Below, piece after piece: positions 4,781-10,651 of a stretch of DNA of 15,014 bases; position 1 is the first letter of the stretch, and each line of letters starts with the position of its first letter. The stretch lies in UHGV virus genome UHGV-0054899; one strand, 5' to 3'. The notes beneath the pieces were generated by a model, which saw only the letters and a list, made by a program, of their open reading frames with translations, searched no databases and was not told the DNA's origin. A program made the translations under genes and the position numbers. The stretch is from a virus.

Positions 4781-5022
4781 CTTTCGTCATTGAGTTTGAG
4801 GATGGTAAAGAACCTCCTGTACATGCTCATATGGAAGCGTTCGGCGGCAAGGTTGTTGCAGTGGCCTTCCGTGATGCACTAAGCGAGCAGGAAGAACGTG
4901 AGCAGGTAACAAGCATTTATGAGCCGCTAAACACTATCCGTTGTTTTATCTGTAATGTTCGCCACCCAATCGGCGTTGCTTGTCCGTTTAATACGATTAC
5001 TTCGGCGGTAAGCAATGGCTAA
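4768..5022 (+). CDS. hypothetical phage protein
   Basis: ATG at 4768 with AGGAGG 7 nt upstream; 84 aa. Confidence 0.55.
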   Translation: MSKLTFVIEFEDGKEPPVHAHMEAFGGKVVAVAFRDALSEQEEREQVTSIYEPLNTIRCFICNVRHPIGVACPFNTITSAVSNG

Positions 5023-5353
5023 ATCCGCAGCAGAGCGCAAAGCCGCGCAGCGTGCCCGTCTGGCTGAAGCCGGTAACCGCAAGATGGAATTGCAACTCGA
5101 CGAGCAGGAAATGGAGATGCTGGCGCGAAACTGCGCCGCCCGGCGCCCTGGTCGTGCGACGTATGAAATGGCTGAGTACATCGCGCTGTTGATCCGCCAG
5201 GATGATGCCCGGGTGCGTGGTCGTATCAAGTCAATCAGTGCTAACCGGTGTGGTAAGTGTGGCGATGTATTACCTGTTGAGTCGTGTCCGTGCGACGGGG
5301 ATTCGGCATGCTGGGTTACGCGTGGCTGGCATGAGACTAAATTATCAGTGTGA
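5015..5353 (+). CDS. hypothetical protein with C-terminal Cys cluster (possible zinc-binding regulator)
   Basis: ATG at 5015; 112 aa. C-terminal motif C-G-K-C-G…C-P-C-D…C. Last gene before the terminase operon. Confidence 0.55.
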   Translation: MAKSAAERKAAQRARLAEAGNRKMELQLDEQEMEMLARNCAARRPGRATYEMAEYIALLIRQDDARVRGRIKSISANRCGKCGDVLPVESCPCDGDSACWVTRGWHETKLSV

Positions 5354-5361
5354 CATGTCAC
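5350..5361. repeat. perfect 12-bp palindrome GTGACATGTCAC (copy 1)
   Basis: Read directly; overlaps the stop codon of the 5015-5353 gene. An identical copy lies at 7556-7567. Confidence 0.8.
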
Positions 5362-5384
5362 GATATCTGCAATAAATTGCAATG

Positions 5385-5410
5385 GCCGCCGACTATGGCG
5401 GCTTTGTTTT
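5385..5410 (+). terminator. Rho-independent terminator candidate upstream of the terminase operon
   Basis: GCCGCC-GACTAT-GGCGGC (6-bp GC stem) followed by TTTGTTTT. It lies inside the track's 5382 N-terminal extension, which argues against that start. Confidence 0.55.
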
Positions 5411-5421
5411 GCGTGTTACTA

Positions 5422-5454
5422 TTACCAAAACGGTAATTATTACTTCGGTGGTAA
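5422..5454. promoter_or_regulatory. two adjacent inverted-repeat sites TTACC-N5-GGTAA (5422-5436 perfect; 5440-5454 TTACT-N5-GGTAA), candidate operator or activator site for the late operon
   Basis: Read directly, immediately upstream of the terminase small subunit start. An identical perfect site is at 8655-8669. Confidence 0.4.
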
Positions 5455-5456
5455 CA

Positions 5457-6050
5457 ATGCCCGCAGAACCAAAAGCACCAAAACGCAAATCAACGCAGTA
5501 CAAGCCACTCACAGCGATGCAGGAGGCTTATGCACAGGAATATACCAAATGCCCTGAGAATCAGACTCAGGCGGCGATTAACGCAGGATTCTCGCCTAAT
5601 CCGGCGGCTGTCAAAGCCAGCGTCATGATGCGTGATGAGCGTATCCAGAAACGGATCGCCGAACTGATGGAAGAGCGCAACAAGCGCCTGCGCGTCAGTG
5701 CTGATTATGTGCTGCTCCGTTTGGTGGAAATTGACCAGATGGATGTGATCGATATCCTCAACGACGACGGCACACTGAAGCCGATCCGCGAGTGGCCGAA
5801 GATATGGCGTACCACGCTGAGCGGTTTCGACCTTTCATCGACCATCATGAACATGGACGAGACATCAATCGAGACGATCCTCAAAAAAATCAAATGGCCT
5901 GACAAGGTGAAGAATCTCGAGCTCATCGGCAAGCACGTCGACGTCAACGCGTTCAAAGAGCGCCTGGAGGTTTCAGGCACTGTCACCATTGCCGACCGCA
6001 TGGCGAAGGCTCGCCGTCGCGTGAAAGAGCAGGCTGGTGGTGAAGAATGA
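5457..6050 (+). CDS. terminase small subunit
   Basis: ATG at 5457 after GGTGG. N-terminal region (…LTAMQEAYAQEYTK…NQTQAAINAGFSPNPAAVKASVMMRDERIQKRIAEL…) is typical of terminase small subunits. Stop overlaps the large subunit start (ATGA). Confidence 0.8.
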   Translation: MPAEPKAPKRKSTQYKPLTAMQEAYAQEYTKCPENQTQAAINAGFSPNPAAVKASVMMRDERIQKRIAELMEERNKRLRVSADYVLLRLVEIDQMDVIDILNDDGTLKPIREWPKIWRTTLSGFDLSSTIMNMDETSIETILKKIKWPDKVKNLELIGKHVDVNAFKERLEVSGTVTIADRMAKARRRVKEQAGGEE

Positions 6051-7528
6051 CAGCCGCATCCATGTCGCCGGAAGAACAACTCGTCGAGGATATCGCTGGG
6101 TTCACGTATGACCCGCTTGGCTATTCTCTGTATGCGTTCCCGTGGGGAGAAGAGGGAACGGAGCTGGCGCATGCCACTGGGCCGCGTAAATGGCAGGCCG
6201 ACGCATTCCGCGAGATACGCGATCACCTCCAGAACCCCGTTACCCGCCATCAACCGCTGATGCTGGCGCGCGCATCCGGTCACGGCATCGGTAAATCCGC
6301 TTTCATATCGATGCTGATTAACTGGGGCATGTCCACCTGCGAGGATTGCAAGGTGGTGGTGACCGCCAATACCGACAACCAGCTGCGTACCAAGACATGG
6401 CCGGAAATCATCAAATGGTCCAACCTGGCTATCACCAAAGAGTGGTTCACCTGCACCGCCACCGCGATGTACAGCAACGATCCCGGACACGATAAACGCT
6501 GGCGCGCTGACGCCATTCCGTGGTCTGAGCACAACACCGAGGCATTCGCAGGGCTGCATAACGAGCGTAAGCGCATTATCGTGGTGTTCGACGAAGCGTC
6601 CAACATTGCCGATCTGGTATGGGAGGTTGCCGAGGGTGCGCTGACGGACGAGGACACTGAAATCATCTGGGTGGCGTTCGGGAACCCAACGCGCAACACC
6701 GGGCGTTTCCGCGAATGCTTTCGCAAATACAAGCACCGCTGGAAGTGCGCGCAGATTGACAGTCGCACCGTTGAAGGCACCAACAAGCAGCAGTTGCAGA
6801 AATGGGTGGACGACTACGGAGAGGACAGCGACTTCGTGAAGGTCCGTGTGCGCGGGATCTTCCCTGATGCGTCTGAGAACCAGTTTATCCCATCAGGCCT
6901 GACACAGCCTGCCGTGGGCAGGGTTATCACTCCGGCGCAGGTCCAGCACGCTGCTGTAGTTCTTGGCGTCGACCCGTCTCACCAGGGTAAAGACCCGGCA
7001 GTTATCTACCTTAGGCAAGGGCTGCACTGTAAGAAACTTGGCGAGTGGCAACGAACTACCGACGACGTATTGTTTGCTAAGGTGATTGCCGACTTTGAAG
7101 ACCAGTACCAGGCCGATGCTGTGTTTATCGATTACGGGTACGGGACCGGGCTTAAATCAGTTGGCGATAACTGGGGCCGTAACTGGACCCTGATTCAGTT
7201 CGGCAGCGGTACGGCAGATCCAGAGATGGGCAATAAACGCGGTGAGATGTACAAATCAGCCCGCGATGCGCTGAAGCTTGGGGCGCAACTCGACAGCCAG
7301 AACCTTGCCGATGAGCTGAGTGCGCCGGAGTACAAGGTCAGGCTGAAGGACAGCAGGAAGATTTTGCAGGACAAGGAAGAAGTCAAAGAGTTGCTTGGCA
7401 GATCCCCGAACGATGCCGACGCATACGTGCTGACATATGCCGCTCCTGTGACCAAAAAGCAATTCAACTATGGGCAGCAGCAGAGCCAGCATGGCAAGGC
7501 TCTCACAGAGTACGATCCCTATGCATGA
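6047..7528 (+). CDS. terminase large subunit
   Basis: 493 aa, translationally coupled to the small subunit. Walker A-like SGHGIGKS, Walker B-like IIVVFDEAS, and a C-terminal nuclease-type region (…VLGVDPS…). Confidence 0.9.
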   Translation: MTAASMSPEEQLVEDIAGFTYDPLGYSLYAFPWGEEGTELAHATGPRKWQADAFREIRDHLQNPVTRHQPLMLARASGHGIGKSAFISMLINWGMSTCEDCKVVVTANTDNQLRTKTWPEIIKWSNLAITKEWFTCTATAMYSNDPGHDKRWRADAIPWSEHNTEAFAGLHNERKRIIVVFDEASNIADLVWEVAEGALTDEDTEIIWVAFGNPTRNTGRFRECFRKYKHRWKCAQIDSRTVEGTNKQQLQKWVDDYGEDSDFVKVRVRGIFPDASENQFIPSGLTQPAVGRVITPAQVQHAAVVLGVDPSHQGKDPAVIYLRQGLHCKKLGEWQRTTDDVLFAKVIADFEDQYQADAVFIDYGYGTGLKSVGDNWGRNWTLIQFGSGTADPEMGNKRGEMYKSARDALKLGAQLDSQNLADELSAPEYKVRLKDSRKILQDKEEVKELLGRSPNDADAYVLTYAAPVTKKQFNYGQQQSQHGKALTEYDPYA

Positions 7529-7551
7529 AAAAGCCCGCGCATCGACGGGCT
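7527..7551 (-). terminator. Rho-independent terminator for the minus-strand accessory gene
   Basis: Stem AGCCCG / CGGGCT with an 8-nt loop; on the minus strand it is followed by UUUUU (the + strand AAAAA at 7527-7531). On the + strand there is no T-run after it. Confidence 0.5.
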
Positions 7552-7555
7552 GATT

Positions 7556-7567
7556 GTGACATGTCAC
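7556..7567. repeat. perfect 12-bp palindrome GTGACATGTCAC (copy 2; 14 bp TGTGACATGTCACA at 7555-7568)
   Basis: Read directly; lies between the minus-gene stop (7572-7574) and its terminator, and just after the terminase large subunit stop. Confidence 0.8.
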
Positions 7568-7571
7568 AGCG

Positions 7572-7991
7572 TTACTTAATGGCATCAAATCCAGCGTTGA
7601 TGGCTTCCGCAATATTGGTGGCATTGGTTTTATCGAATTGTCCATTCTGAATAAGTGCCGCATGCAGACATTGTAACTTCATGTTGTATAAGTGTTCGCT
7701 CATGTAATCATCATCACTTTTTTCTTTAGCATAAACAGCGCGAGAAATATCAAACACATTGCCTTTTTCCATTTCAGAACGTTGTGCCGCTATCCAGTCA
7801 TAGCACGTAACGCTAGTGCCATGGTCTTCGCTAAGAGTTAACCCGGCCAGTTTCTCACCCTGAATTACTTCGTAATGCATTTCATTGCCAGCAAAAACGC
7901 CATAAAAAATGCAGTCATCAGCCTGAACGATACGGGAATATTTTAATGGCCATTCATTTAGATACTTAGCCAACATATCAACTGTTTTCAT
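7572..7991 (-). CDS. hypothetical acidic protein of unknown function (139 aa), accessory 'moron' gene
   Basis: Only credible minus-strand gene in the window. Strong Shine-Dalgarno AAGGTGAG ahead of the ATG, own downstream terminator, and visibly lower GC than the flanks. No motif I recognise. Confidence 0.75.
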   Translation of the reverse strand: MKTVDMLAKYLNEWPLKYSRIVQADDCIFYGVFAGNEMHYEVIQGEKLAGLTLSEDHGTSVTCYDWIAAQRSEMEKGNVFDISRAVYAKEKSDDDYMSEHLYNMKLQCLHAALIQNGQFDKTNATNIAEAINAGFDAIK

Positions 7992-8002
7992 AGTCTCACC
8001 TT

Positions 8003-8026
8003 AAAAAAATGCCCACCGAAGTGGGC
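8003..8026 (-). terminator. intrinsic terminator or attenuator hairpin directly upstream of the accessory gene's ribosome-binding site
   Basis: On the minus strand: GCCCAC-UUCG-GUGGGC, then A, then UUUUUUU, running straight into AAGGTGAGACT-ATG. Confidence 0.55.
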
Positions 8027-8654
8027 GAACTGGAAGCAAGGGAGCCTTCCATGGCTTACGGGTTTACAACACAACGTCATCACAATGGCGTTCTGGTGTA
8101 AAAGTGACGGTGGTCAGCATCAAGGGAAACTGCCACCGCCAAAGGCTACACAGCATCGTTCTTATGGGCGCTTCATCACGGTCCTAAGGCGTGATTGGGT
8201 TGTGGTGGCCGGTGCTGAACTCCGGCTTGGCTATGCGACTTGCTAGTTGACACCGGAGTTTCACCGGGGCGAAGGTTTCGCAAATCGTTTATTGGGTCAG
8301 TGCTGGCTTGCAACGCGCTTACTCAACCGACTACAGCCAACGATATCTACTACCCATCAGGTCTTACACTTGCGCATCAGCCTGCGCATTCACCACAACG
8401 GAAAGAGCACTGGCTAACCAGGCTTCACCGACTCCTCACGATTATCGGTTCAGTGCTCTTACCTGTTGCATCCTCGTCTCTTCCGAGGTGTCACACCGTA
8501 TCGCCACGATGGTGAATCGTCTGTCCGTGCTTACCTAACACTGGCTTGCACATTCCGGCTACCCGGCTGGGGAAGTAGCATCAAGGGAACCCATCCGGAC
8601 CGCTGCGGCACATGTGCCATATGCCGTACATCCACTGCGTCACATCAACACCAA
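8027..8654 (-). ncRNA. candidate structured noncoding RNA or long regulatory leader (identity unknown)
   Basis: About 630 bp with no minus-strand ORF of 60 aa or more; the + strand carries only three mutually overlapping ORFs in all three frames with non-protein-like composition. Ends at a minus-strand terminator. Contains GC-rich hairpins, a 12-bp palindrome GGCACATGTGCC (8607-8618) and dispersed short repeats. Strand and function are inferred only. Confidence 0.25.
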
Positions 8655-8669
8655 TTACCTAAAAGGTAA
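8655..8669. promoter_or_regulatory. inverted-repeat site TTACC-TAAAA-GGTAA (third copy of the motif) in an AT-rich putative promoter region
   Basis: Read directly, in the AT-rich stretch 8650-8750 upstream of the structural operon. A TTGACA hexamer sits on the minus strand at 8691-8686. Confidence 0.4.
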
Positions 8670-8759
8670 TATCTGATGTTATAAGTGTCAATAGCCTACG
8701 CTAAATAAATCATATGTGGTTAAATTGGTAATAATTTAATTGCGTACGGAGCTATTGCT

Positions 8760-8966
8760 ATGTGTATCGGCAGCAAGCCATCAGTGCCAGCAGCGCCAGA
8801 AGTACAGGCTGCGCCACAGGAGCAGGATGCAGCAGTCGTCAGTTCTCGTGACGACGAAGAGCGCCGCCGACGTGCAGCAGCAGGCCGCAGTTCCACTCTG
8901 CTGACTGGTGCGCAGGGTGACACATCAACCGCAAACACCAGCGGTAAAACGCTGCTTGGTCAGTAA
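8760..8966 (+). CDS. small protein beginning MCIGSKP…, possible virion protein (T7 gp6.7-like by recollection)
   Basis: ATG at 8760 with GGAG 8 nt upstream; 68 aa, Ala/Pro/charged-rich. Resemblance to T7 gp6.7 (N-terminal MC-x-S-P-K, small size, position ahead of the portal gene) is from memory and weak. Confidence 0.45.
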   Translation: MCIGSKPSVPAAPEVQAAPQEQDAAVVSSRDDEERRRRAAAGRSSTLLTGAQGDTSTANTSGKTLLGQ

Positions 8967-8980
8967 CGGAGTAGGCAGAG

Positions 8981-10651
8981 ATGGCGGAAACCGAAAAAGA
9001 GCGCCTGCTGAAGCAGCTAGCACAGCTGAAGAATGAGCGCACATCGTTCGAATCGCACTGGCGTGATCTGAGTGACTTCATCAATCCGCGCGGTTCCCGC
9101 TTTCTGACGTCTGATGTAAACCGTGATGATCGTCGTAACACTAAGATTGTTGATCCTACCGGCTCAATGGCTCAGCGCATTCTGTCCAGTGGCATGATGT
9201 CAGGCATCACCAGCCCGGCACGTCCGTGGTTCAAACTGGCAACGCCTGACCCTGACATGATGGACTATGGCCCGGTGAAAATCTGGCTGGAAGTCGTGCA
9301 GCGCCGTATGAACGAAGTGTTCAACAAGTCTAACCTGTATCAGTCACTTCCTGTTATGTACGCAAGCCTGGGTACTTTCGGCACCGGCGCTATGGCTGTT
9401 CTGGAAGATGACCAGGACGTGATCCGTACAATGCCTTTCCCTATTGGCAGTTACTATCTGGCAAACAGTCCGCGCGGTAGCGTTGACACCTGCATTCGTC
9501 AGTTCTCCATGACTGTGCGCCAGATGGTGCAGGAATTCGGGCTGGATAACGTCAGTACATCCGTAAAAGGCATGTTGGAAAACGGCACGTATGAAACGTG
9601 GGTGGAGGTTAACCACTGCATCACGCCTAACGTCAACCGCGACAGCGGGAAGATGGACAGCAAGAATAAGCCTTACCGCTCTGTCTATTTCGAAACTGGC
9701 GGTGACGCTGACAAGCTGCTGCGTGAATCCGGTTTCGATGAATTCCCAATCCTGGCTCCGCGCTGGGAAGTGAACGGTGAAGACGTTTACGCCTCATCTT
9801 GCCCTGGTATGTTGGCACTCGGTCAGGTTAAAGCCCTTCAGGTTGAGCAGAAGCGCAAAGCTCAGCTTATCGATAAAGCCACTAACCCGCCGATGGTTGC
9901 CCCGACATCGCTCAAGAATCAGCGTGTTTCCCTGTTGCCTGGCGATGTGACATATCTCGACGTGTTGACCGGTCAGGATGGTTTCAAACCTGCATACCTG
10001 GTTAACCCGAATACTGCCGACCTGCTGGCTGACATTCAGGATACCCGCCAGACCATCAACAGCGCCTACTTCGTTGACCTCTTCATGATGCTGCAAAACA
10101 TCAACACTCGCTCTATGCCGGTGGAAGCGGTGATCGAGATGAAGGAAGAGAAACTGCTGATGCTTGGCCCGGTGCTTGAGCGACTGAATGACGAAGCGCT
10201 TAACCCGCTTATCGATCGCGTGTTCTCAATCATGGCCCGCAAGAACATGTTGCCTGAACCGCCAGACGTTCTTCAGGGTATGCCGCTGCGTATCGAGTAC
10301 ATCTCTGTGATGGCTCAGGCGCAGAAATCTATCGGCCTCACCAGCCTGTCGCAGACAGTTAGCTTTATCGGGCAACTGGCACAGTTCAAACCTGAAGCGC
10401 TCGACAAGCTCGACGTTGATCAGGCTATCGACGCGTTCTCTGAAATGTCAGGCGTATCGCCAACCGTCATCGTTCCGCAAGAGCAGGTACAAGGTATTCG
10501 TGAAGATCGCGCGAAACAGGCTCAGGCAGCACAGGCAATGGCTATGGGTCAGGCGGCAGCGCAGGGAGCCAAGACTCTCAGCGAAACGCAGACCAGCGAC
10601 CCGAGCGCATTAACCGCTATCGCTAATGCAGCAGGAGCACCGCAGCAATGA
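8981..10651 (+). CDS. portal (head-to-tail connector) protein
   Basis: 556 aa, first large gene after terminase. C-terminal Q/A/M-rich tail (…AQAAQAMAMGQAAAQGA…) resembles T7 gp8-type connectors as I recall them. Confidence 0.75.
   Translation: MAETEKERLLKQLAQLKNERTSFESHWRDLSDFINPRGSRFLTSDVNRDDRRNTKIVDPTGSMAQRILSSGMMSGITSPARPWFKLATPDPDMMDYGPVKIWLEVVQRRMNEVFNKSNLYQSLPVMYASLGTFGTGAMAVLEDDQDVIRTMPFPIGSYYLANSPRGSVDTCIRQFSMTVRQMVQEFGLDNVSTSVKGMLENGTYETWVEVNHCITPNVNRDSGKMDSKNKPYRSVYFETGGDADKLLRESGFDEFPILAPRWEVNGEDVYASSCPGMLALGQVKALQVEQKRKAQLIDKATNPPMVAPTSLKNQRVSLLPGDVTYLDVLTGQDGFKPAYLVNPNTADLLADIQDTRQTINSAYFVDLFMMLQNINTRSMPVEAVIEMKEEKLLMLGPVLERLNDEALNPLIDRVFSIMARKNMLPEPPDVLQGMPLRIEYISVMAQAQKSIGLTSLSQTVSFIGQLAQFKPEALDKLDVDQAIDAFSEMSGVSPTVIVPQEQVQGIREDRAKQAQAAQAMAMGQAAAQGAKTLSETQTSDPSALTAIANAAGAPQQ

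What the first reader, a model, noticed from the sequence alone, without database searches (positions are those of the whole stretch)
5350..7568. Identical 12-bp palindrome GTGACATGTCAC after two gene ends flanking the terminase genes
Two perfect copies lie at 5350-5361 (overlapping the stop of the last nin-like gene) and 7556-7567 (just past the terminase large subunit stop and the minus-gene stop; 14 bp palindromic there). Two identical perfect 12-bp palindromes in 15 kb is very unlikely by chance, and both sit at operon boundaries. A related palindrome GGCACATGTGCC sharing the ACATGT core is at 8607-8618. The half-sites resemble CRP (TGTGA/TCACA) but the spacer is 4 bp, not 6. Candidate dimeric-protein site, RNA hairpin or recombination site.
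Basis: seen in the sequence. Interest (0 to 1): 0.55.

Follow-up and report, generated by a model that had tools for sequence, protein, structure and literature searches.

The report
Phage regulator's conserved palindromic binding site
The two identical palindromes are real copies of a conserved 12-base site, GTGAC-NN-GTCAC, that in many unrelated temperate phages sits on the stop codon of a small uncharacterised DNA-binding-type gene, so it is most likely that protein's binding site and has no specific tie to the terminase genes.

Summary
GTGACATGTCAC occurs exactly at 5350-5361 and 7556-7567. Only 6 of 3000 shuffles of the window contain any duplicated 12-bp palindrome.

The window is an epsilon15-like (Uetakevirus) phage. 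Both copies are kept in relatives while the DNA to their right varies. Epsilon15 has a third copy at the end of its structural operon.

The conserved unit is GTGAC-N2-GTCAC. The half-sites do not vary, the centre does, and no other spacing occurs. This fits a dimeric protein site. The RNA hairpin is weak.

The link to terminase is incidental. The site follows the gene at 5015-5353 (epsilon15 gp49 / N15 gp46 family) and often contains its TGA stop. This holds in P2-like, N15-like, lambda-like, ZF40-like, Pantoea and Vibrio phages. Of 80 species-level loci, 67 carry a site within 4 kb: 77 sites against 0.6 expected.

The gene product models as a ribbon-helix-helix DNA binder with a Cys4 tail. 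The best reading is that the site is its operator. Because the sites lie in transcribed DNA, a transcription barrier or autoregulatory role is inferred. Binding is untested.

The site has the half-sites of matS but one spacer base fewer. It is not a CRP or LexA site. GGCACATGTGCC at 8607 is unrelated.

The parts
5350..5361 (.). Site 1: GTGACATGTCAC, containing the TGA stop (5351-5353) of the gp49-family gene
   Evidence: Exact match. A GTGAC-NN-GTCAC site sits at the homologous stop codon in 73 of 80 viral relatives. It lies at or within 60 nt after the stop in 47 of 80 species-level loci.
7555..7568 (.). Site 2: TGTGACATGTCACA (12-bp core 7556-7567), between the terL terminator hairpin and the stop of the minus-strand moron
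   Evidence: Exact match. A site lies within 800 nt after terL in 62 of 71 relatives. It is conserved in epsilon15, phiV10, PAT1 and SPC32H.
5015..5353 (+). gp49 / N15 gp46-family gene (112 aa): candidate binding protein, with an N-terminal ribbon-helix-helix region and a C-terminal Cys4 region
5384..5411 (+). Intrinsic terminator ending the early-right operon, 22 nt downstream of site 1
   Evidence: Terminator scan. Annotated as a rho-independent terminator at the homologous place in epsilon15.
7532..7551 (-). Terminator hairpin shared by terL (+) and the minus-strand moron. The T-run is on the minus strand. The hairpin lies 3-4 nt from site 2.
   Evidence: Terminator scan. Compensatory stem changes among window, epsilon15, phiV10 and PAT1.
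7572..7991 (-). Variable minus-strand moron (PHROG 4846, function unknown) that begins just right of site 2; context only
   Evidence: It is replaced by other genes in epsilon15 and phiV10. A homologue is listed beside only a minority of the 80 relatives.

Best explanation
The two palindromes are two of the (in epsilon15, three) genomic copies of a conserved 12-bp operator, GTGAC-N2-GTCAC. A protein dimer reads this operator as double-stranded DNA. The most likely reader is the small ribbon-helix-helix plus Cys4 protein encoded by ORF 5015-5353 (epsilon15 gp49 / N15 gp46 family), whose own stop codon lies inside site 1. Shown here: the sites are non-random and conserved, their spacing is specific, they are genetically linked to this gene across unrelated phages, and the protein has an RHH fold. 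Inferred: gp49 binds them. The invariant basic N-terminal helix (R8, K9, Q12, R15) may read the invariant outer half-sites, while the variable beta-ribbon sits over the variable centre. Further inferred: the sites never lie in promoters. They lie in transcribed DNA: on stop codons, beside terminators at the 3' ends of the early-right, terminase and structural operons, and, in other phages, inside the cII-like gene. The bound dimer therefore most likely acts on elongating RNA polymerase as a barrier or boundary element. That would limit read-through between transcription units and feed back on gp49's own operon. The direction of the effect (block or read-through) is not established.
Against: No binding data exist. 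No paper in the library contains the motif string. SPC32H/SPN1S carry an N-terminally truncated gp49 that starts within the predicted beta-strand, yet keep all three sites. The residues predicted to face DNA on the beta-strand differ between subfamilies that share the same half-site. Of the 80 species-level gp49 loci, 13 have no exact site within 4 kb. The 12-mer also recurs where no gp49 homologue was found, for example at a cro stop / next-gene start in Klebsiella phage ST16-OXA48phi5.3 and inside a Q-like gene. The terminator-adjacent geometry (89 of 145 sites) rests on about three ancestral sites, so it is not independent evidence. The model of the Cys4 region is only moderately confident, with pLDDT 58-68 over residues 71-110.
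Confidence: 0.55

Rival explanations
1. Same binder, opposite effect. gp49 bound at the site loads onto or contacts RNA polymerase and promotes read-through of the adjacent terminators. This would be a Q-like or local antiterminator, or an activator of the promoter immediately downstream. It would join the early-right, terminase and structural units into long late transcripts.
For: The gene is the last one of the early-right operon, directly upstream of the late genes, as Q is in lambda. In the window and epsilon15 the sites lie 1-22 nt on the upstream side of terminator hairpins. In many relatives site 1 lies 6-7 nt upstream of the -35 of a LexA-box promoter.
Against: For site 2 the 'site before terminator' geometry holds only on the minus strand, where read-through would produce antisense terL RNA. 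According to the epsilon15 annotation, each late unit has its own repressor-controlled promoter. The family also occurs as an accessory gene in phages that already have Q or Ogr-type late regulators. In N15-like and lambda-like members there is no room for a promoter between the site and the next gene's ribosome-binding site.
Confidence: 0.15
2. The site is read by a host protein common to Enterobacterales and Vibrio, for example MatP or another nucleoid or regulatory protein, and gp49 is only a neighbour.
For: The half-sites are identical to those of matS, GTGACRNYGTCAC. The hosts of every phage that carries the site belong to the enterobacterial, Vibrio or Aeromonas group. The sites persist in SPC32H although its gp49 is truncated.
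Against: The spacer is 2 nt and never 3: the matS spacing was found 0 times in 1.5 Mb of relatives. A host-factor site has no obvious reason to sit on the stop codon of one particular accessory gene in five or more unrelated phage lineages. The neighbouring gene itself encodes a DNA-binding fold.
Confidence: 0.1
3. The motif acts at the RNA level. A small hairpin on the transcript just upstream of terminators would serve as a processing, stability or translational-coupling element, or as the binding site of an RNA-binding protein.
For: The motif is transcribed at every location. It often contains the stop codon and is directly followed by the next gene's Shine-Dalgarno sequence. It lies on the 5' side of terminator hairpins.
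Against: The hairpin is only -2.9 kcal/mol and no better than shuffled sequence, z +0.29. In the 73-nt context of site 1 the minimum-energy fold does not use the palindrome's own hairpin. No compensatory stem substitutions were seen in hundreds of copies: the stem bases are invariant and only the would-be loop varies. Site 2 would then act on the moron transcript rather than the phage late transcript. There is no Rfam match.
Confidence: 0.08
4. The motif is a recombination or mosaic-junction sequence: a 'linker' at which modules such as morons, the ant cassette and the terminase block are exchanged.
For: Homology among relatives breaks within 1-8 nt to the right of both sites. At least six unrelated sequence classes follow site 1, and different morons follow site 2.
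Against: Twelve base pairs is short for homologous recombination, and no dedicated recombinase travels with the motif. In ZF40-like, Xenorhabdus, Providencia and Proteus prophages the site is in frame inside the cII-like gene, which is not a module junction. Intergenic 3' ends are where mosaic joints survive in any case.
Confidence: 0.07
5. Coincidence or hitch-hiking: two chance copies inherited by descent, with no function.
For: Some 12-mer families in other phages look like this, such as the TGA-C-ATG stop/start overlap at a cro gene and a copy inside a Q-like gene.
Against: The shuffle test, the spacing specificity, the roughly 100-fold enrichment and the conservation across unalignable phage backgrounds.
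Confidence: 0.03

Closest known systems
matS / MatP (Ter macrodomain organiser of E. coli)
   Different: The spacer is 2 nt, not 3, and the 3-nt form never occurs in the phage data. There are 1-3 copies on a phage genome, not about 23 in the chromosomal terminus. gp49 has an N-terminal basic helix and a Cys4 tail; MatP's four-helix bundle and coiled coil are recalled from memory and were not compared here. No sequence similarity was detectable.
Phage and plasmid RHH repressor-operator pairs (P22 Arc and Mnt, CopG, omega, ParG, RHH antitoxins)
   Same: A small dimeric RHH protein and a short palindromic DNA site encoded next to each other.
   Different: Those operators overlap promoters upstream of the regulated genes (general knowledge). 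Here the site is at the 3' end of the regulator's own gene, often containing its stop codon, plus extra copies beside terminators or inside the cII-like gene. There is also an extra Cys4 domain, and no Pfam, NCBIfam or PDB sequence match.
Lambda Q and its qut site
   Same: The regulator gene is the last gene of the early-right operon, immediately upstream of the late genes, with its candidate site right next to the gene.
   Different: There is no homology. The site is not inside a promoter. The same family occurs in phages that carry a separate Q or Ogr-type regulator.
CRP site (TGTGA-N6-TCACA) and LexA box (CTGT-N8-ACAG)
   Same: Site 2 contains TGTGA...TCACA, and the 14-mer equals the inner 14 bases of a CTGT-N8-ACAG box.
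   Different: The CRP spacer is 6 nt, against 4 here. The outer C and G needed for a LexA box are absent at site 1 (GTGT...ACGA) and half absent at site 2 (TTGT...ACAG), and those flanks are not conserved. Genuine LexA boxes do occur a few bases further downstream in relatives.

Membership tests
matS (MatP-binding site) | 13-bp consensus GTGAC-RNY-GTCAC with a 3-nt spacer | tested here: not met
   The spacer is 2 nt at both window copies. GTGAC-N3-GTCAC occurs 0 times in 863 kb plus 636 kb of relatives. The consensus was taken from PMC6907758.
matS (MatP-binding site) | Bound by host MatP | not testable with these tools
   Needs EMSA or ChIP.
CRP-binding site | TGTGA-N6-TCACA spacing | tested here: not met
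   TGTGA-CATG-TCACA has a 4-nt spacer, and the left T is absent.... More precisely, only site 2 has both the flanking T and the flanking A.
LexA (SOS) box | CTGT-N8-ACAG with conserved outer CTG/CAG | tested here: not met
   Site 1 reads GTGT...ACGA and site 2 reads TTGT...ACAG. The outer positions are not conserved in relatives.
RHH regulator plus palindromic operator pair | The adjacent gene encodes a ribbon-helix-helix DNA-binding fold | tested here: met
RHH regulator plus palindromic operator pair | Palindromic site with conserved half-sites at a fixed spacing | tested here: met
RHH regulator plus palindromic operator pair | Gene and site co-occur across lineages | tested here: met
   67 of 80 species-level loci have a site within 4 kb, against 0.6 sites expected in total. 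The pair occurs in P2-like, N15-like, lambda-like, ZF40-like, Pantoea and Vibrio phages.
RHH regulator plus palindromic operator pair | Direct, sequence-specific binding of the protein to the site | not testable with these tools
   No experiment was found: the motif string is absent from the paper library.
RHH regulator plus palindromic operator pair | Operator overlaps the promoter of the regulated operon | tested here: not met
   The sites lie on stop codons, beside terminators or inside the cII-like gene. Only a weak -35-like reading exists, at site 1 alone.
Packaging signal (pac or cos) of the terminase | Travels with a given terminase type and lies in or next to terS | tested here: not met
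   The site follows gp49 homologues in phages with lambda-type, P2-type and ZF40-type terminases. Extra copies lie far from terS.
Structured RNA or intrinsic terminator | Stable hairpin with covariation, or a hairpin plus U-tract | tested here: not met
   -2.9 kcal/mol, z +0.29. The stem bases are invariant and show no compensatory changes. No Rfam hit.

The most novel reading that the evidence does not exclude
The gp49/gp46 family is a previously unrecognised class of phage regulators that acts on transcription units from inside rather than at promoters. A ribbon-helix-helix dimer would sit on an operator built into its own stop codon, at other operon 3' ends, and inside the cII-like gene. 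It would form protein-dependent transcription boundaries that shut off or insulate early and late units and autoregulate the protein. A still bolder version holds that, because the site is matS with one spacer base removed, the protein is a phage counterpart or competitor of MatP that organises or tethers phage DNA.
Probability: 0.25. Interest if true: 0.65.

Novelty: new variant of a known kind. Interest (0 to 1): 0.5.

Why it matters
Epsilon15, phiV10, SPC32H, N15-like phages and ZF40 are well-used model or applied phages. Even so, this element is not annotated in the carefully curated epsilon15 record, and the linked gene is called only 'hypothetical' or 'transcriptional regulator'. If the pairing is real, it identifies a new regulator with its regulon of one to three sites per genome. 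The sites sit next to decision points: the end of the early operon, the cII-like gene, antirepressor (ant) genes and the late operons. It also gives a simple, directly testable case of a DNA-binding protein whose operator lies on its own stop codon. In practice, the motif is a cheap marker of transcription-unit and mosaic boundaries in these prophages.

Full report
**Observation**

GTGACATGTCAC occurs exactly twice in the window, at 5350-5361 and 7556-7567. Copy 1 contains the TGA stop (5351-5353) of ORF 5015-5353. An intrinsic terminator follows it after 22 nt, at 5384-5411. Copy 2 lies after the terL stop (7528) and after a hairpin at 7532-7551 whose T-run is on the minus strand. It ends 4 nt before the stop of the minus-strand ORF 7572-7991. 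There the palindrome extends to 14 bp. The window holds seven perfect 12-bp palindromes. Only 6 of 3000 dinucleotide-preserving shuffles contain any duplicated one.

**What the window is**

The window is an epsilon15-like podovirus (genus Uetakevirus). It is about 94% identical to Salmonella phage PAT1 and about 90% identical to epsilon15 over the shared parts. The gene order is:
- early-right genes: an Ant-domain protein, a DnaT-like protein, a lambda-P-like protein and others;
- the gp49-like gene at 5015-5353;
- terS (5457-6050) and terL (6047-7528);
- a minus-strand moron, then a long non-coding stretch;
- gp3 and the portal gene (8981-10651).

The curated epsilon15 record annotates repressor operators (ATTACC-N5-GGTAAT) upstream of terS and gp3, as well as terminators, IHF sites and RNase III sites. 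It annotates nothing at the palindromes.

**Conservation**

Epsilon15 carries the motif three times:
- at the gp49 stop (39613);
- after the terL terminator (2142);
- at 19517, where it again contains a TGA stop (gp18, the last gene of the structural operon) and lies one base before a terminator.

phiV10, SPC32H and PAT1 keep the same positions. PAT1 has the centre AG at copy 2.

I fetched 80 viral contigs through the gp49 protein alone, without reference to the motif. Of these, 73 have GTGAC-NN-GTCAC at the gp49 stop, and 3 more have it behind an extra inserted ORF. Of 71 contigs that extend far enough, 62 have a site within 800 nt after terL. The distance from terL varies from 30 to 641 nt.

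To the right of both sites the sequence changes completely between relatives. At least six unrelated classes follow site 1. They include a bare terminator, a LexA-box promoter with a small gene, and small ORFs. Different morons follow site 2.

The conserved unit is GTGAC-N2-GTCAC:
- In 863 kb of these relatives there are 145 copies with a 2-nt spacer, one with a 1-nt spacer, and none with 0 or 3-10 nt.
- The centre is usually AT but also AG, GT, AC or CT.

As RNA the motif folds at only -2.9 kcal/mol, no better than shuffled sequence. No compensatory stem changes occur.

**The link is to gp49, not to terminase**

Scans of the viral collection for the two 14-mers returned 238 loci. Of these, 76 carry a gp49 homologue within the few kilobases fetched, and 37 of those 76 are not Uetakeviruses. 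The same gene-plus-site pair appears in unrelated phages:

| Phage | Type | Site and position |
|---|---|---|
| ZF40 (Pectobacterium) | myovirus | starts 3 nt after the stop |
| Chlobot | lambda-like | starts 7 nt after the stop |
| Yersinia vB_YenM_201.16 | P2-like | GTGACGCGTCAC, TGA inside |
| Pantoea AH07 | unassigned | GTGACCTGTCAC, TGA inside |
| Klebsiella Kpn74 | unassigned | GTGACTGGTCAC, TGA inside |
| YDC107_1, gp46 | N15-like | GTGACTGGTCAC, TGA inside |
| Vibrio 10N phage | unassigned | GTGACAGGTCAC, TGA inside |

Protein identity to the window falls to 36-44% in these cases, and the surrounding DNA cannot be aligned.

I then took an unbiased species-level sample: one genome per species, 80 loci, 41-91% identity, from Citrobacter to Xenorhabdus, Providencia, Proteus, Pantoea, Erwinia and Serratia.
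- 47 loci have an exact site at or within 60 nt after the stop, 30 of them with the TGA embedded.
- 67 loci have at least one site within 4 kb.
- There are 77 sites in 636 kb where 0.6 are expected, and again almost none at other spacings.

Extra copies elsewhere show a pattern:
- ZF40 and ZF40-like contigs carry two more copies flanking the immunity region.
- One of these lies in frame (xGT GAC ATG TCA Cxx) about 75 nt before the stop of the cII-like activator gene.
- The same intragenic site occurs in Xenorhabdus, Providencia and Proteus prophages that carry a gp49 homologue 1-4 kb downstream.
- The N15-like phage has three unique sites: at the gp46 stop, inside repA, and just upstream of the secondary-immunity / antirepressor region.

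**What gp49 is**

- It belongs to PHROG 536, 'transcriptional regulator'. RefSeq uses the same name for epsilon15.
- Pfam, NCBIfam and PDB sequence or profile searches find nothing.
- An AlphaFold2 model (pLDDT 74) has a helix at 5-18, an extended segment at 19-29, and helices at 30-43 and 52-75.
- The family alignment has four invariant cysteines (C79, C82, C91, C99) and an invariant basic N-terminal helix (R8, K9, Q12, R15).
- The family is narrow: 204 clusters at 50% identity among 1.84 billion representatives.

**Mechanism**

Shown: a spacing-specific palindrome is conserved and genetically coupled to a gene for an RHH-fold protein.

Inferred: gp49 binds it.

Further inferred: the sites are never promoter elements. 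They lie in transcribed DNA, on stop codons, next to terminators and inside the cII-like gene. The bound dimer therefore most likely acts on elongating polymerase as a barrier or boundary, and feeds back on its own operon.

The opposite sign, local antitermination or activation, cannot be excluded. In the window and epsilon15 the sites lie on the upstream side of terminator hairpins. In many relatives site 1 is 6-7 nt upstream of a LexA-box promoter. The orientation statistic rests on about three ancestral sites, so I give it little weight.

Evidence against the gp49 reading:
- SPC32H/SPN1S have a gp49 that lacks its N-terminus yet keep all three sites.
- 13 of 80 gp49 loci have no site nearby.
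- The 12-mer also recurs in at least two contexts with no gp49 homologue or no obvious link to one.

**Comparison with known sites**

- matS (GTGACRNYGTCAC) has the same half-sites and an RHH reader, but a 3-nt spacer. That spacing never occurs here.
- CRP fails on spacing: 4 nt here against 6.
- LexA fails on the outer CTG/CAG bases.
- The location of the gene recalls lambda Q and qut, but there is no homology, and the family coexists with Q or Ogr in other phages.
- GGCACATGTGCC at 8607 sits in a uniformly conserved ~50-nt leader block. Its left arm is not kept palindromic in many relatives, so it is not part of this system.

**Verdict**

This is a real, conserved cis element that is not annotated in the records examined and is absent from the paper library searched, and it comes with a named candidate protein. 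It is best filed as a new variant of the RHH regulator and operator theme, because of where the operator sits. Binding and the direction of the effect remain to be tested.

Noticed in passing
window 8129-8589 (direct repeats at 8116-8128 and 8577-8589): A 461-bp block is absent from epsilon15. It lies inside the long non-coding stretch between the minus-strand moron and gp3 and is bounded by a perfect 13-bp direct repeat, AGCATCAAGGGAA. It has no sizeable ORF, no Rfam hit and no tRNA, and it is only mildly structured (z -1.85). Parts of it match 226 phage records, including Klebsiella and Stx phages. SPC32H annotates a tRNA-Arg at the homologous variable spot.
   Followed up: partly
window 8582-8632 (includes GGCACATGTGCC at 8607-8618): A ~50-nt non-coding block upstream of gp3 is conserved as a whole among Uetakeviruses. 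In epsilon15 it lies just before an annotated RNase III site. It is probably part of a processed leader. The palindrome within it is not conserved as a palindrome.
   Followed up: partly
window 5362-5383; relatives L245, L263, L268, L267: In many relatives, the DNA immediately after site 1 holds a strong promoter (TTGACT/G-17-TACTGT) overlapped by a LexA box (CTGT-N8-ACAG), followed by a small gene of roughly 110-130 codons starting MGFPSPA.... The window keeps only a degenerate remnant of the -35 region, then a terminator.
   Followed up: partly
window 5421-5437 and 8654-8670: ATTACC-N5-GGTAAT palindromes lie directly upstream of terS and of gp3. They match the 'repressor' binding sites annotated in epsilon15, which suggests that the prophage repressor controls the late operons directly.
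   Followed up: no
L414 (SPC32H) 38179-38632: In SPC32H/SPN1S the gp49 homologue has lost its first ~20-25 codons through fusion or overlap with the upstream ORF. The annotated 78-aa product would start inside the predicted beta-strand. All three palindromes are intact. Copy 3 lies between the end of the structural operon and the 3' end of the ant gene annotated in SPC32H; its experimental characterisation and LexA control are from my own knowledge.
   Followed up: partly
L001 (PAT1) 7134-9584; L258 and L259: Some close relatives have a terL reading frame about 970 nt longer than the window's (2451 nt against 1482 nt). This suggests an insertion within or fused to terL, possibly an intein or a homing-endonuclease-type element. 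It was not examined.
   Followed up: no
L333 (N15-like YDC107_1) 32991-33010: One of the three sites is extended to a 20-bp perfect palindrome, CCCCGTGACTGGTCACGGGG. It lies immediately upstream of the ribosome-binding site of the first ORF of the secondary-immunity / antirepressor region. The record also appears to contain a large inverted duplication (about 28-34.6 kb and 38.8-45.4 kb).
   Followed up: no
L324 (ZF40) 7622; L391, L410, L386 and others: The 12-mer is embedded in the same reading frame, with the same codons (xGT GAC ATG TCA Cxx), about 75 nt before the stop of cII-like activator genes (PHROG 163). This holds across Pectobacterium, Xenorhabdus, Providencia and Proteus prophages whose flanking DNA has diverged. 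That indicates selection at the DNA level inside a coding region.
   Followed up: partly
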